This document shows, piece after piece, positions 56,120 to 58,413 of a stretch of DNA of 64,000 nucleotides (within the stretch, counting starts at the first letter, position 1; each line of letters starts with the position of its first letter). The stretch is from an uncultured archaeon (GTDB lineage Archaea; Thermoproteota; Nitrososphaeria; Nitrososphaerales; Gagatemarchaeaceae). A model generated the notes under the pieces. The model made no database searches. It saw only the letters and a program-made list of their open reading frames with translations, and was not told the origin of the DNA. The DNA is taken from positions 448,001 to 512,000 of the forward strand of contig CAWFOU010000007.1 of NCBI GenBank assembly GCA_963817525.1. The letters are read 5' to 3'. Made by a program: the position numbers and the translations under genes.

Positions 56120-56132
56120 AATAATTATATAG
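56120..56132 (+). promoter_or_regulatory. TATA box of the Ku-ligase-PolX operon
   Basis: AATAATTATATAG ends 28 nt before ATG 56161. Confidence 0.6.
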
Positions 56133-56160: not shown

Positions 56161-57003
56161 ATGGCAAAGAACATCTTCTCCGAAGTAGAGAAGCAGGCGG
56201 ACGCCGGGGGGGCGTCTAGGGCGTCCTGGCGCGGGATCCTGAGCCTCAATATCCCCACCCTGGGCCTCGGGGCGGTGGAGTACCACCTCCGCGCGGCGAA
56301 GGCCCATGGGGATCTGAAGCCCGTGACCTTCGTGAAGCTAGACAAGAAGACGGGGAAGGAGGTCGTGAGCAGGGAGGTCCCGAGGATGTATCGCTACAAG
56401 GAGGGGCCCGACGGCGAGCGCACCGACGTCGCGGAGATCTCGCCCGAGGACGCCAAGAAGAAGGTCAGGTACGACGGCAAGTACATGGTCTCCGTGAGGA
56501 CGGAGAAGAGGTACTTCCTCAAGCACGAGCTCGAGATGTCGGGCCACTGGATAGAGGTCCCCGCCGACCGCATCGTGGACAAGCAGGACGGAGAGGAGAT
56601 AGAGCCCTTCGAGAGGACGACGCGGGTCGAGGTTGAGCAGGACGGGTTCGTCCCCATCGAGCGGCTAGAGGAGTACAAGTTCAAGGAGGTGTACCAGCTG
56701 TCGCCCGACACGGACAAGAGGGTCAAGGAGACCACCGCGAGGGTCAAGCAGCTCGCGCGCTACCTGCTGGAGAAGCACACGGCGCTCGTCGCCTTCTTCT
56801 CCTGGGGGAGGGGGTACCAGTTCTACACCGCGGTCATCTACCCGTACGAGCGCAAGGACGGGAAGCTCTGGCTCCTGATGGGGATGAGCGAGGGCATACT
56901 GAAGCTCGACACGGCCTGGGCGCTCGAGAGCGAGGAGCAGGGCGAGGGCCTCGCGCCGGTCCCGACGGCGAAGAAGAAGCCCAAGGTCACGATATCGAAG
57001 TAG
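56161..57003 (+). CDS. Divergent Ku-like DNA end-binding protein
   Basis: RASWRGILSL resembles Ku RAIWKG.ISF; V.F..LDKKTG..V resembles F..LH...G.RI; FVP...EEYKF..VYQLSP resembles FV...ID..YF..PYYL.P; L...L.E...ALVA.F...Y.AVI.P matches Ku; basic C-terminal tail. Confidence 0.68.
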   Translation: MAKNIFSEVEKQADAGGASRASWRGILSLNIPTLGLGAVEYHLRAAKAHGDLKPVTFVKLDKKTGKEVVSREVPRMYRYKEGPDGERTDVAEISPEDAKKKVRYDGKYMVSVRTEKRYFLKHELEMSGHWIEVPADRIVDKQDGEEIEPFERTTRVEVEQDGFVPIERLEEYKFKEVYQLSPDTDKRVKETTARVKQLARYLLEKHTALVAFFSWGRGYQFYTAVIYPYERKDGKLWLLMGMSEGILKLDTAWALESEEQGEGLAPVPTAKKKPKVTISK

Positions 57004-57021
57004 CTTGCCGAGAGTCCACCC

Positions 57022-57861
57022 ATGAGCGAGCTGCCGGACTACGTCGCGGAGCACTTCGCCCACGCGGTGAAGCAGGACCTCGGGACGTGGCTACTTCACA
57101 ACCCCCTCCCAGCGCTCGTCGAGCCGAAGCTTGACGGGATCAGGGTCTTCCTCTTCAAGAGCGGGGACAAGCTCGTCATCTCGAGCAAGCACGGCGGGAT
57201 GTACACGCCCCAGTCTAGCCCCAAGGTCTTCGCTACGTTCCCCGAGCTGCTGCACACCCCTCACAGGATGATCCTAGACGGCGAGTACGTGTCGAGGGAG
57301 CCTATCAAGAGGAAGGGGGTGTTCCTCTTCGACGTGATGCAGGTCGACGACAGGGACATCGGGTCGCAGCCCCTGAGCGAGAGGAAGAAGGTCCTCCGAG
57401 AGATACTGGAGGACACGGGCCTGGAGGTCCCCTACAGCATGGCGAAGACCGCCCAGGAGGTGCTGGTGCTCAAGGAGCGCTACGCGAAGGAGGGATACGA
57501 GGGGGCCGTCGCCAAGAACCCGCTGTCCGCCTACGGGGATCAAGGCTCGTGGCTCAAGCTCAAGACGTTCGAGACCATCGACGTGTTCGTCATGGACTAT
57601 GAGAAGACCCAGGAGATGGAGAGGACCGGCGTCCCCCGCTCATGGGTGGTAGGGGTCTACGACGACCAGGGTAGGAGGGTGTCCCTTGGGAAGGTCGGGG
57701 CGTTCGTCGAGAAGGTCGACCCCCGCCAGGTGAAGAAACACTCCGTGGTCGAGGTGAGGTACCAGGAGATCACACAGGACATGAAGCTGCGCGGGGCGTT
57801 CATCCTGAGGGTCAGGCACGACAAGGTCCCCAGCGAGTGCCTGCTCTCCCAGGCCAAGTGA
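57022..57861 (+). CDS. Minimal ATP-dependent DNA ligase (adenylation plus OB domains only)
   Basis: Motifs I EPKLDGIR, III ILDGEY, IIIa LFDVM, IV EGAVAK, V WLKLK, VI RVRHDK; 279 aa. Confidence 0.93.
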   Translation: MSELPDYVAEHFAHAVKQDLGTWLLHNPLPALVEPKLDGIRVFLFKSGDKLVISSKHGGMYTPQSSPKVFATFPELLHTPHRMILDGEYVSREPIKRKGVFLFDVMQVDDRDIGSQPLSERKKVLREILEDTGLEVPYSMAKTAQEVLVLKERYAKEGYEGAVAKNPLSAYGDQGSWLKLKTFETIDVFVMDYEKTQEMERTGVPRSWVVGVYDDQGRRVSLGKVGAFVEKVDPRQVKKHSVVEVRYQEITQDMKLRGAFILRVRHDKVPSECLLSQAK

Positions 57862-57870
57862 GGAGAGAGG

Positions 57871-58413
57871 ATGCCCTCCCTGAAGAAGGACCTCGACCCG
57901 AAAGCCGCCGGGAGGATTGCGGGCGACTTTCTGAAGAAGACCTCCGACCTCTATTACAGGGCGGAGCTTGGCGGGAGCATCCGTAGGAAGGCCCCGGTCG
58001 TCCATGACATCGACTTCGCTGTCATCCCCAAGGGGGACGACTTTCCAAAGTGGAAGGAGGAGGTGACGGACCGCGTCGTCGAGATCGGCGGGAGGGTCAT
58101 CACCTTCGGCGAGGTCATCTCTGACTTTTTCTACAAGGGGGCGCAGGTAAACCTCTTCCTCTGCCCCGGGCCTGACTCCTGGGGCGTGACCCTGATGTGG
58201 GCCACGGGCCCGAAGGGCCACACCATCGGGATGACGATAAAGGCGAGGGACAAGGGGCTCCTCATCAACTCTAGGGGAATATGGACCCGGGAGGAGCACC
58301 CCCGTCTGGTGCCCGCGAGGACGGAGCACGAGGTCGGCAAGATACTGGGGTGGAAGTACAAGCCCCCGGAGGAGCGCGGGAAGGACGTCAAGGAAAAGCC
58401 GGCCTTCTACTAG
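57871..58413 (+). CDS. Minimal X-family DNA polymerase (palm plus thumb only)
   Basis: GGSIRR....HDIDF, QVNLF, WATGPK, A...G..IN..GI, TE.EV...LG..Y.PPEER; 180 aa. Confidence 0.88.
   Translation: MPSLKKDLDPKAAGRIAGDFLKKTSDLYYRAELGGSIRRKAPVVHDIDFAVIPKGDDFPKWKEEVTDRVVEIGGRVITFGEVISDFFYKGAQVNLFLCPGPDSWGVTLMWATGPKGHTIGMTIKARDKGLLINSRGIWTREEHPRLVPARTEHEVGKILGWKYKPPEERGKDVKEKPAFY

What the first reader, a model, noticed from the sequence alone, without database searches (positions are those of the whole stretch)
56161..58413. Candidate archaeal end-joining operon: divergent Ku, minimal ATP ligase and minimal PolX
Seen: three co-oriented genes with 18- and 9-nt gaps behind one TATA box, with host-like GC. 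They encode a Ku-like protein, a 279-aa ligase with the six usual ATP-ligase motifs and no DNA-binding domain, and a 180-aa PolX. Established: characterised prokaryotic NHEJ (bacterial LigD, Methanocella) pairs Ku and ligase with an AEP-family polymerase and a phosphoesterase, while Ku plus ligase plus X-family polymerases (lambda/mu) is the eukaryotic arrangement. No AEP or phosphoesterase gene is adjacent here. Inference: a compact NHEJ-like module with eukaryote-like composition in an archaeon. I do not know of a described example, and this is the best candidate for an undescribed system in the window.
Basis: partly seen in the sequence, partly recalled or inferred. Interest (0 to 1): 0.9.

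Follow-up and report, generated by a model that had tools for sequence, protein, structure and literature searches.

The report
Archaeal Ku, small ligase, mini-PolX operon
A soil archaeon carries a conserved three-gene operon (a divergent Ku, a stripped-down DNA ligase and a very small X-family polymerase with an altered active site) that looks like an undescribed way of building a DNA break-joining machine.

Summary
Three co-oriented ORFs lie at the stated coordinates, with 18- and 9-nt gaps, a TATA-like box and host-like GC. Gene 1 is a true but very divergent Ku. It passes Pfam Ku, its family profile hits solved Mycobacterium Ku, and its AlphaFold model finds only Ku chains. Gene 2 is an ATP-dependent ligase made of the NTase and OB domains only, with all six motifs conserved.

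The trio keeps its order in 23 of 24 genome loci and 25 of 34 informative metagenome loci. It is under purifying selection. It was found only in one family of non-ammonia-oxidising Nitrososphaerales: 42 of 97 genomes there, and 0 of 389 sampled genomes elsewhere in the class. That family has no LigD-type AEP polymerase (0 of 97). A sister family has canonical Ku next to three-domain LigD.

Best reading: an NHEJ-like break-repair operon in which a PolX fold replaces the AEP polymerase. Whether the mini-PolX polymerises is open, and function is inferred, not shown. Five literature searches found no description.

The parts
56120..56132 (+). A/T-rich TATA-like box in the 64-nt intergenic region, about 30 nt upstream of the Ku start codon. 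It is the candidate archaeal promoter of the operon.
   Evidence: Read from the sequence. Comparable A/T boxes lie about 27-38 nt upstream of the start in most of the 19 orthologous upstream regions printed. No transcript data.
56161..57003 (+). Divergent single-domain Ku homologue, 280 aa, with a conserved basic C-terminal tail (KKKPKVTISK, residues 271-280).
   Evidence: Pfam Ku 36.3 bits against a cut-off of 25. 18 of 30 family members match Pfam Ku. The family profile hits Mtb Ku structures 9i91/8v53 at E about 2-4e-5. The AF2 model has pLDDT 76.7. All Foldseek top hits listed are Ku chains, E down to 3.7e-9. Median dN/dS is 0.11.
57022..57861 (+). Minimal ATP-dependent DNA ligase, 279 aa, with nucleotidyltransferase and OB domains only. 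The predicted adenylated lysine is K36 (57127-57129).
   Evidence: PF01068 72.6 bits. The best NCBIfam hit is the NHEJ ligase domain TIGR02779, 92.1 bits, below its cut-off of 227.75. PDB hits are archaeal ligases (E 2.4e-16) and the Mtb LigD ligase domain (E 3.9e-8). Six motifs are conserved in 22 sequences. Median dN/dS is 0.20.
57862..57870 (+). A 9-nt purine-rich spacer (GGAGAGAGG) between the ligase stop and the PolX start, suggesting tight coupling of the two genes.
   Evidence: The median ligase-PolX gap is 9 nt over 57 loci, and 56 of 57 gaps are at most 250 nt.
57871..58413 (+). Mini X-family polymerase homologue, 180 aa, palm plus thumb only. GS motif at 34-39. D46 (58006-58008) and D48 (58012-58014) are kept. 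The third catalytic position is N94 (58150-58152). The C-terminal tail is conserved and ends in an aromatic residue (F-Y in the window).
   Evidence: PF14791 43.4 bits. It aligns to Thermus PolX residues 181-314 at E 7.8e-11, with Asn opposite D243. It is collinear with, though only weakly similar to, ASFV Pol X of 174 aa. N94 is invariant in 23 aligned sequences. The genome's own full-length PolX has Asp at this position. Median dN/dS is 0.20.

Best explanation
This is a chromosomal, lineage-specific three-gene operon for repairing DNA breaks by end joining (NHEJ-like).

Inferred mechanism: the Ku homologue forms a ring-shaped homodimer that threads onto broken DNA ends and holds them. The minimal ATP-dependent ligase, adenylated on K36, seals the strands. 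The tightly coupled mini-PolX (palm+thumb, nucleotide-binding GS and DxD motifs kept, third carboxylate replaced by Asn) works beside the ligase at the aligned ends. It takes the place that the AEP polymerase domain holds in LigD. It acts either as a slow or unusual gap-filling nucleotidyltransferase, or as a non-catalytic end-binding or bridging subunit.

Shown here: homology and fold of all three proteins, intact ligase motifs, the altered PolX triad, conserved gene order, purifying selection, restricted and patchy taxonomic range, and absence of LigD-type AEP polymerases in the family.

Inferred: dimerisation, end binding, physical contacts, co-transcription and the biological role.
For: Ku identity.

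Ligase competence.

PolX core.

Synteny:
- 23 of 24 genome loci keep the order Ku-Lig-PolX.
- In the family census, Ku-like was found in 42 of 97 genomes and mini-PolX strongly (E <= 1.1e-49) in 41 of 97. My reading of the two tables gives 36 genomes with both on one contig within 3 kb, 2 with both on different contigs, 3 with PolX only at contig ends, and 4 with Ku only.
- Of 34 metagenome loci with at least 2 kb downstream of Ku, 25 have all three genes.
- The median gaps are 35 nt (Ku-Lig) and 9 nt (Lig-PolX).

Selection: median dN/dS is 0.11, 0.20 and 0.20.

Flanks are ordinary metabolic genes and are not conserved beyond close relatives.

Displacement argument: a sister family in the same order has canonical Ku (46 of 78 sampled genomes; the count includes the unpublished G365). 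That Ku lies next to a 962-995 aa PE-LIG-PrimPol LigD in 3 of 3 loci examined. This family has 0 of 97 LigD-type PrimPol matches and keeps a stand-alone PE in 69 of 97 genomes.
Against: No functional or expression data exist.

The mini-PolX has Asn where all active PolXs have Asp or Glu. PMC9226535 (section 11 read whole, plus passages) classes such triads as non-canonical. It reports loss of polymerase activity for such enzymes and for a single-substitution B. subtilis mutant.

The mini-PolX also lacks the 8-kDa, fingers and PHP domains.

The Ku is far from canonical Ku. It scores 15.8 bits against the bacterial Ku equivalog, whose cut-off is 150. Its single sequence gives no PDB hit. Its profile against the sister family's Ku is not significant (hhalign E 0.013, probability 3%).

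Two loci have Ku-Lig without PolX (L042, L100). Seven loci hold a stand-alone Ku paralogue. So PolX is common in the cluster but not obligatory.

The cluster is missing from more than half of the family's genomes, including some 100% complete ones. It is therefore accessory.

PE presence is not tied to the cluster: 34 of 41 Ku+ genomes against 35 of 56 others (my reading).
Confidence: 0.65

Rival explanations
1. This is a base-excision or single-strand-break repair back-end rather than double-strand-break joining. The mini-PolX fills one-nucleotide gaps and the ligase seals them, as in the ASFV Pol X plus ligase pair. Ku supplies the AP/dRP-lyase activity that the 8-kDa-less PolX lacks.
For: The mini-PolX has the same palm+thumb size and layout as ASFV Pol X. 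A giant-virus PolX core fused to a ligase-like domain is described as a BER enzyme (PMC5537341; title and start of abstract seen in the listing). Bacterial Ku proteins process abasic sites (PMC4245934; title and start of abstract). The ligase-PolX gap is only 9 nt.
Against: The defining first gene is a Ku, whose known core role is end binding. The PolX lacks the third catalytic Asp, which makes efficient gap filling doubtful. Every family genome with enough sequence also holds a full-length PolX of about 570-590 aa with an intact triad, which could serve BER. Ku-Lig occurs without PolX in 2 loci.
Confidence: 0.15
2. The module serves, or derives from, a mobile element or virus. It might circularise a linear genome, as with the Ku of some mycobacteriophages, or act in antiviral defence, rather than maintain the host chromosome.
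For: Distribution inside the family is patchy (42 of 97), and flanks vary between genera. The nearest protein-atlas clusters to the mini-PolX are PolX-like proteins of 158-197 aa, mostly labelled viral or Uroviricota (a lead only). A 243-aa PolX-like hypothetical protein occurs in an Acinetobacter phage, and there is a weaker match in a Vibrio phage. Homing-endonuclease-like and transposase-like ORFs are inserted between Ku and ligase in some loci. Mycobacterial NHEJ has been linked to antiphage defence (PMC12848934; title and start of abstract).
Against: GC is host-like. No integrase, transposase or capsid gene was found among the 10 flanking ORFs. There were no relatives in IMG/VR for Ku or mini-PolX. 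The Ku gave no match in 50,697 phage records. The genes show long-term purifying selection and stable order across 7 genera.
Confidence: 0.08
3. The genes are neighbours by descent only and act separately: an orphan Ku-like DNA-binding protein, a spare ligase and a decayed PolX remnant.
For: The PolX triad is incomplete. A stand-alone Ku paralogue exists (L023 and 7 metagenome loci). Ku reading frames are interrupted in a few genomes (G429 with two in-frame TGA, G413 in two pieces).
Against: PolX dN/dS is 0.20, with 54 invariant positions including the GS and DxD motifs and N94. That pattern is not decay. Order and tight spacing are conserved in dozens of loci, although the flanks change.
Confidence: 0.07

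Closest known systems
Prokaryotic (bacterial/archaeal) NHEJ: Ku plus LigD, or the split Ku, Lig, AEP-Pol and PE of Methanocella paludicola (recalled; cited as Bartlett et al. 2013 in passages of PMC7719229)
   Same: A single-domain Ku next to an ATP-dependent ligase with NTase and OB domains, in one operon with a small repair polymerase. A LigD-type phosphoesterase is encoded in the same genome.
   Different: The polymerase is an X-family palm+thumb, not an archaeo-eukaryotic primase-type PolDom. PF21686 was found in 0 of 97 family genomes. The Ku fails the bacterial Ku equivalog (15.8 against 150 bits), and the ligase fails the NHEJ-ligase equivalog (92 against 228 bits). The PE is unlinked, and its presence does not track the cluster.
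Canonical Ku plus three-domain LigD in a sister family of the same order (soil Nitrososphaerales with 30-33% GC; loci L131-L133)
   Same: Same order of archaea, the same presumed task, and Ku adjacent to the ligase gene.
   Different: There the Ku scores 144-163 bits on Pfam Ku, and the neighbour is one 962-995 aa PE-LIG-PrimPol protein. Here the Ku scores 36 bits, and the ligase and polymerase are separate small genes of other lineages. The ligases share only 25% identity, and the Ku profile comparison is not significant.
Eukaryotic NHEJ: Ku70/80, DNA ligase IV-XRCC4, Pol lambda/mu (established knowledge; structures 9n81, 9gd7, 9i04 appear among the fold hits)
   Same: The same three protein folds in one pathway: Ku, ATP ligase and X-family polymerase. 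The Ku model matches Ku80 chains best by Foldseek E-value (3.7e-9).
   Different: One Ku gene, so presumably a homodimer, without vWA or SAP domains. No BRCT on the ligase or the polymerase, and no XRCC4/XLF found or sought. The PolX lacks the 8-kDa and fingers domains and the third Asp, and by sequence it is nearest to prokaryotic PolX. The resemblance is in composition and is most simply explained as convergent.
ASFV Pol X (174 aa), with the ASFV ligase, in viral base excision repair (role recalled)
   Same: Almost the same length and a collinear palm+thumb layout. Query residues 34-169 align to chain residues 37-173. Both are paired with an ATP ligase.
   Different: Sequence similarity is weak (E 0.006-0.1). 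ASFV Pol X has a complete Asp triad (recalled) and no Ku partner.
Non-canonical bacterial PolXs associated with NHEJ genes (PMC9226535; passages and section 11 read)
   Same: An altered catalytic triad in a PolX linked to end-joining genes. LigD is the commonest operon neighbour of non-canonical PolX in Alphaproteobacteria.
   Different: Those proteins are about 570 aa and keep the PHP exonuclease domain, which the paper takes to be their working activity and describes as obligatorily present in prokaryotic PolXs. The protein here has no PHP, 8-kDa or fingers domain. Its single Asp-to-Asn change is invariant rather than one of many degraded variants.

Membership tests
Ku (Pfam PF02735, Ku70/Ku80 beta-barrel) | Sequence match to the Ku core profile above the curated cut-off | tested here: met
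   36.3 bits against a cut-off of 25, E 7.1e-9, residues 144-237. 18 of 30 family members match at E <= 0.01. The family profile hits Mtb Ku 9i91/8v53 at E 1.8e-5 and 3.9e-5.
Ku (Pfam PF02735, Ku70/Ku80 beta-barrel) | Ku three-dimensional fold | tested here: met
   The AF2 model built from a 30-row alignment has pLDDT 76.7 and pTM 0.62. Foldseek against PDB gave 109 matches at E <= 0.001. All rows listed (ranks 1-50) are Ku chains (Ku80, B. subtilis Ku, Mtb Ku) at probability 1.00, with TMq only 0.34-0.43.
Ku (Pfam PF02735, Ku70/Ku80 beta-barrel) | Dimeric ring that encircles DNA ends, with end-binding activity | not testable with these tools
   No homodimer or DNA complex was modelled. This needs biochemistry or a structure.
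Bacterial-type Ku equivalog (NCBIfam TIGR02772) | Score above the equivalog cut-off | tested here: not met
   15.8 bits against a cut-off of 150. It is a member of the Ku superfamily but not of this equivalog.
ATP-dependent DNA ligase (PF01068 / PF04679) | Adenylation domain with motifs I, III, IIIa, IV and V, and an OB domain with motif VI | tested here: met
   PF01068 scores 72.6 bits, above its cut-off. PF04679 scores 26.6 bits, just under its cut-off of 27.5. All six motifs are present and conserved in 22 sequences (motif definitions recalled).
LigD-type NHEJ ligase domain (NCBIfam TIGR02779) | Score above the equivalog-domain cut-off | tested here: not met
   It is the best NCBIfam hit, but at 92.1 bits against a cut-off of 227.75. 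Identity to the LIG domain of a sister-family LigD is 25%.
X-family DNA polymerase | Pol-beta-type palm with GS motif, plus thumb domain | tested here: met
   PF14791 thumb scores 43.4 bits against a cut-off of 25. Palm and thumb align to Thermus PolX residues 181-314 at E 7.8e-11. The Pfam palm model itself gave no match at E <= 1.
X-family DNA polymerase | Three catalytic carboxylates (Asp triad) | tested here: not met
   D46 and D48 are present. The third position is N94, opposite Thermus D243, the Asp of the genome's own full-length PolX and the Asp of a phage homologue. N94 is invariant in 23 aligned sequences.
X-family DNA polymerase | 8-kDa lyase domain, fingers (HhH) domain and, in prokaryotes, a PHP exonuclease domain | tested here: not met
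   The protein is 180 aa. The aligned block leaves 111 residues of the own-genome full-length PolX (579 aa) before it and 141 after it, and the mini-PolX has almost no counterpart to the PHP stretch inside that block. No HHH_8 or PHP match appeared in Pfam.
Canonical prokaryotic NHEJ system (Ku + LigD with AEP PolDom) | AEP-type primase-polymerase domain (PF21686), fused or adjacent | tested here: not met
   No match in the own genome, which is 95% complete, and none in 97 family genomes. The controls rang in B. subtilis and M. jannaschii.
Eukaryotic-type NHEJ | Ku70/80 heterodimer with vWA and SAP domains, BRCT-bearing ligase IV and Pol lambda/mu | tested here: not met
   There is one Ku gene in the genome. 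The three proteins gave only Ku-core, ligase and thumb matches in Pfam.

The most novel reading that the evidence does not exclude
This would be a third architecture of non-homologous end joining, evolved independently in non-ammonia-oxidising Thaumarchaeota. A highly divergent Ku works with a two-gene ligase/PolX unit. The invariant D-D-N mini-PolX would not be a conventional polymerase. It would be a nucleotide-binding end-bridging or ligase-loading subunit, or a nucleotidyltransferase with unusual chemistry. In that case an X-family fold was recruited to Ku-dependent end joining twice, in eukaryotes and in archaea.
Probability: 0.3. Interest if true: 0.8.

Novelty: new variant of a known kind. 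Interest (0 to 1): 0.62.

Why it matters
NHEJ is reported as rare in archaea: 10 of 243 genomes had both Ku and a LigD-type ligase in PMC7719229 (passages). All characterised prokaryotic systems use an AEP polymerase.

This operon would show that Ku-dependent end joining can be built with an X-family fold outside eukaryotes, in an abundant group of acid-soil archaea. It also provides three things.
- The smallest cellular PolX-like protein I am aware of, which contradicts the statement that prokaryotic PolXs always carry a PHP domain.
- A natural, invariant Asp-to-Asn active-site variant for testing what the third carboxylate is needed for.
- A very compact three-protein set (280, 279 and 180 aa) that could be tried as an end-joining tool in laboratory hosts.

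It bears on, but does not settle, how the eukaryotic combination of Ku, ligase and PolX arose.

Tried and rejected
Single-sequence AF2 of the Ku gave an unusable model (pLDDT 32.3). The single sequence also gave no significant PDB hit (best E 0.94, NUDT5). Only the alignment-based model and the profile search were informative.

Complex prediction with two Ku copies plus mini-PolX returned no verdict (score 0.00 in both runs, controls not run). This says nothing for or against binding.

The look-up of sequencing runs listed no RNA holder. Four DNA holders from one study hold more than half of the words.

Viral origin: no relatives were found in IMG/VR for the window Ku, for the distant member P0170, or for the PolX alignment. 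The Ku has no match in the phage records.

Fused ligase-PolX or longer PolX forms: none was found with lengths 'longer'. The tool itself calls this weak evidence.

The 248-aa ORF after the ligase in L042 is not a diverged PolX (hhalign probability 0.1%).

PE as a hidden fourth component was rejected. It is unlinked, it sits beside ferritin-like and CDC48 genes, and it is about as common in genomes without the cluster.

I considered and rejected two readings. An integrated element is unlikely given the flanks and GC. Chance ORFs are ruled out by dN/dS and conservation.

Not seen: supplements of PMC9226535 (triad frequency table, operon tables). These may list small or D-D-N PolXs. No phylogeny of Ku, ligase or PolX was built.

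Full report
OBSERVATION. They are separated by 18 nt and by 9 nt, the second gap being GGAGAGAGG. An A/T box (AATAATTATATAG, 56120-56132) lies about 30 nt upstream of the first ATG in a 64-nt intergenic region. Comparable boxes lie about 27-38 nt upstream in most of the 19 orthologous upstream regions I printed. The cluster has 63.1% GC against 62.0% for the window. A convergent gene ends 16 nt after the PolX stop. Flanking genes are ordinary: MFS transporter, redoxin, LUD-domain, CBS-domain, substrate-binding protein, GNAT. None is an integrase, transposase, AEP or phosphoesterase.

GENE 1 IS A KU, BUT A VERY DIVERGENT ONE. Pfam Ku matches at 36.3 bits against a cut-off of 25 (E 7.1e-9). The bacterial Ku equivalog scores only 15.8 bits against a cut-off of 150. 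The single sequence finds nothing significant in the PDB. An exhaustive search of 1.84 billion cluster representatives found only 58 at E <= 0.001 and 22 at E <= 1e-30, so the family is small. An alignment of 30 members (A1) behaves as follows. 18 of 30 members match Pfam Ku. Its profile hits two solved Mycobacterium tuberculosis Ku sequences at E 1.8e-5 and 3.9e-5. The AlphaFold2 model built on it (pLDDT 76.7, pTM 0.62) retrieves Ku chains in every row listed by Foldseek: Ku80 at 3.7e-9, B. subtilis Ku at 1.8e-8 and M. tuberculosis Ku at 2.3e-8, all at probability 1.00. TM-scores are modest (TMq 0.34-0.43), as expected for a monomer model of a protein with long arms. The family carries a conserved basic C-terminal tail ('KPKV.ISK') even in distant members.

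GENE 2 IS A MINIMAL BUT COMPLETE ATP-DEPENDENT LIGASE. PF01068 scores 72.6 bits. The best NCBIfam hit is the NHEJ ligase domain, at 92.1 bits, well under its cut-off of 227.75. PDB hits are archaeal replicative ligases (E 2.4e-16) and the LigD ligase domain of M. tuberculosis (E 3.9e-8). Motifs I, III, IIIa, IV, V and VI are present (K36 in KLDG, through RVRHDK at 263-268) and conserved in 22 aligned sequences (motif names are recalled knowledge). There is no N-terminal DNA-binding domain. The genome has three further, large ligase genes.

GENE 3 IS A PALM+THUMB POLX WITH AN ALTERED TRIAD. The thumb model PF14791 scores 43.4 bits. The protein aligns to residues 181-314 of Thermus thermophilus PolX (E 7.8e-11). 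It aligns weakly but end to end with the 174-aa ASFV Pol X (query 34-169 to chain 37-173, E 0.006-0.1). The GS motif and D46-x-D48 are kept. The residue opposite Thermus D243 is Asn94. The same column holds Asp in the genome's own 579-aa PolX and in a 243-aa phage homologue. N94 is invariant in all 23 sequences of alignment A2, together with 53 other positions. PMC9226535 (passages and section 11 read) would class such a triad as non-canonical. It reports that non-canonical PolXs, and a single-substitution B. subtilis mutant, lack polymerase activity. [quoted passage not shown] Polymerase activity is therefore doubtful. Even so, the conservation pattern and a dN/dS of 0.20 show a working protein, not a relic.

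CONSERVATION AND RANGE. Related loci come from MAGs labelled Nitrososphaerota, Thaumarchaeota or Nitrososphaerales. One of them, isolate AcS1-13 (94% Ku identity), is listed under Ca. Gagatemarchaeum in Table 1 of PMC10640624. The window's organism therefore probably belongs to the non-ammonia-oxidising family Gagatemarchaeaceae. That paper's main text does not contain the words DNA repair, ligase, polymerase or end joining.

- Of the 24 genome loci, 23 keep Ku-Lig-PolX in order. The exception, L023, is a second Ku paralogue in a genome that also has the full trio.
- In the 97 genomes of the GTDB family, the Ku-like gene was found in 42 (12 of 26 high-quality genomes; 7 of 10 genera). The mini-PolX was found at E <= 1.1e-49 in 41.
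- Comparing the two tables by hand gives 36 genomes with both genes on one contig within 3 kb and 2 with both on different contigs. It also gives 3 with PolX only at contig ends and 4 with Ku only (one a 38-aa fragment, two of the roughly 60%-identity paralogue type).
- Outside the family, none of 389 sampled genomes of the class matched the protein at E <= 1e-5. The profile found only two short fragments.
- Of 76 metagenome loci, 34 have at least 2 kb downstream of Ku. Of these, 25 have the trio, 2 have Ku-Lig only (L042, L100) and 7 are stand-alone Ku paralogues of 51-67% identity.
- Median gaps are 35 nt for Ku-Lig over 78 loci, with 16 gaps above 250 nt. They are 9 nt for Lig-PolX over 57 loci, with 1 gap above 250 nt.
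- Median dN/dS is 0.11, 0.20 and 0.20, using 110 of 231, 117 of 231 and 140 of 276 pairs, restricted to pairs with dS between 0.05 and 2.
- Flanks are shared only among close relatives.

WHAT IT REPLACES. The own genome (95% complete, 8.75% contamination) has one Ku, no LigD-type primase-polymerase, one stand-alone LigD-type phosphoesterase about 605 kb away, and one full-length PolX. Across the family, the LigD PrimPol domain was found in 0 of 97 genomes and the PE in 69 of 97. PE is not tied to the cluster: it occurs in 34 of 41 Ku+ genomes and 35 of 56 others by my reading. In a sister family of the same order, canonical Ku (140-170 bits) was found in 46 of 78 sampled genomes, a count that includes the unpublished G365. 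In 3 of 3 loci examined there, that Ku lies next to a 962-995 aa PE-LIG-PrimPol LigD. The two solutions are not orthologous. The ligases share 25% identity, and the Ku profile comparison is not significant. The simplest reading is functional displacement: Ku + [PE-LIG-AEP] in one lineage, and Ku + LIG + PolX, with PE elsewhere, in the other.

MECHANISM AND RIVALS. I take the operon to be an NHEJ-like break-repair module (confidence 0.65). Ku binds and aligns the ends and the ligase seals them. The mini-PolX, tightly coupled to the ligase, acts at the junction, as a slow or unusual nucleotidyltransferase or as a non-catalytic DNA-end or ligase partner.

The rivals are a BER-type back-end on the ASFV model, with Ku as the lyase (0.15); a mobile-element or defence role (0.08); and functionally unrelated neighbours (0.07). 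The mobile-element idea draws some support from leads. The nearest protein-atlas clusters are PolX-like proteins of 158-197 aa, mostly labelled viral, and phage records hold small PolX-like hypothetical proteins. However, nothing related was found in IMG/VR, and the local context is chromosomal.

The complex prediction gave no verdict and no RNA data were available. Neither bears on the question.

KNOWN OR NEW. Ku in Thaumarchaeota is on record for ammonia oxidisers (PMC11936186, passages). PolX-NHEJ co-occurrence is on record for bacteria (PMC9226535). Five full-text searches found no description of a Ku, ligase and PolX operon in archaea, or of a PHP-less mini-PolX in a cellular prokaryote. 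Public annotation calls these proteins 'hypothetical protein', occasionally 'Ku protein', and 'DNA polymerase/3'-5' exonuclease PolX'. I rate it a new variant of a known kind. The supplements of PMC9226535 could not be seen and might list related PolXs.

Noticed in passing
L004:2510-2986 (+); also L013, L050, L053 and a fragment in L062: A 158-aa LAGLIDADG-like ORF (motif LAGIIDGEG; Pfam LAGLIDADG_1 at 18.6 bits, below its cut-off of 23.1) is inserted between the Ku and ligase genes in several related loci. It looks like a free-standing homing-endonuclease-like gene sitting inside a putative break-repair operon.
   Followed up: partly
L066 and L114, Ku-ligase gap (about 1.4 kb, minus strand): ORFs of about 440 aa are inserted between Ku and ligase. 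I judged them transposase-like from their N-terminal sequence only (TnpB/OrfB type, recalled resemblance). No family search was run.
   Followed up: no
L023:5929-6852 and metagenome loci L093, L094, L096, L098, L104, L106, L107: A second subfamily of the divergent Ku (51-67% identity to the window protein) stands alone, with no ligase or PolX next to it. In one genome it coexists with the full trio (L021 and L023 lie on the same contig). Its neighbours in L023 are a pterin dehydratase and a TPR-AAA protein.
   Followed up: partly
Own genome G000:C7:1110870-1111241 (-), locus L031 (outside the window): A stand-alone 199-aa LigD-type 3'-phosphoesterase (PF13298, 130.6 bits) lies between a ferritin-like gene and a CDC48-type AAA ATPase. 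The family is present in 69 of 97 genomes of the GTDB family, whether or not they have the Ku cluster.
   Followed up: yes
Proteins P0126 and P0128 (alignment A1, columns about 120-150 and 220-260): Two distant members of the Ku-like family carry insertions with paired CxxC motifs. These may be zinc-ribbon insertions in the Ku core.
   Followed up: no
G429:C3:1963263-1964108 (= L022), G413:C51:76785-77622 and L024: The Ku reading frame is interrupted in a few genomes (two in-frame TGA codons; two pieces; only a 156-aa ORF in L024), while the ligase and PolX downstream look intact. This could be occasional decay or assembly error.
   Followed up: no
L118:3782-4513 (Acinetobacter phage Ab1-TPeters, PP763253.1) and Vibrio phage MG592671.1:73191-73595: Small PolX-like proteins are annotated as hypothetical in tailed phages. 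The Acinetobacter phage protein is 243 aa, with an HHH_8 domain plus a thumb domain, and has Asp at the position aligned with N94 of the window protein. The protein atlas suggests several clusters of viral PolX-like proteins of 158-197 aa (a lead only).
   Followed up: partly
L131-L133 (G302:C3, G171:C1, G159:C1): Low-GC (30-33%) relatives in a sister family carry canonical Ku next to a full three-domain LigD (PE-LIG-PrimPol, 962-995 aa). In L132 an endonuclease/exonuclease/phosphatase-family gene lies nearby. Bacterial-style NHEJ therefore seems common in that family (46 of 78 sampled genomes have the Ku).
   Followed up: partly
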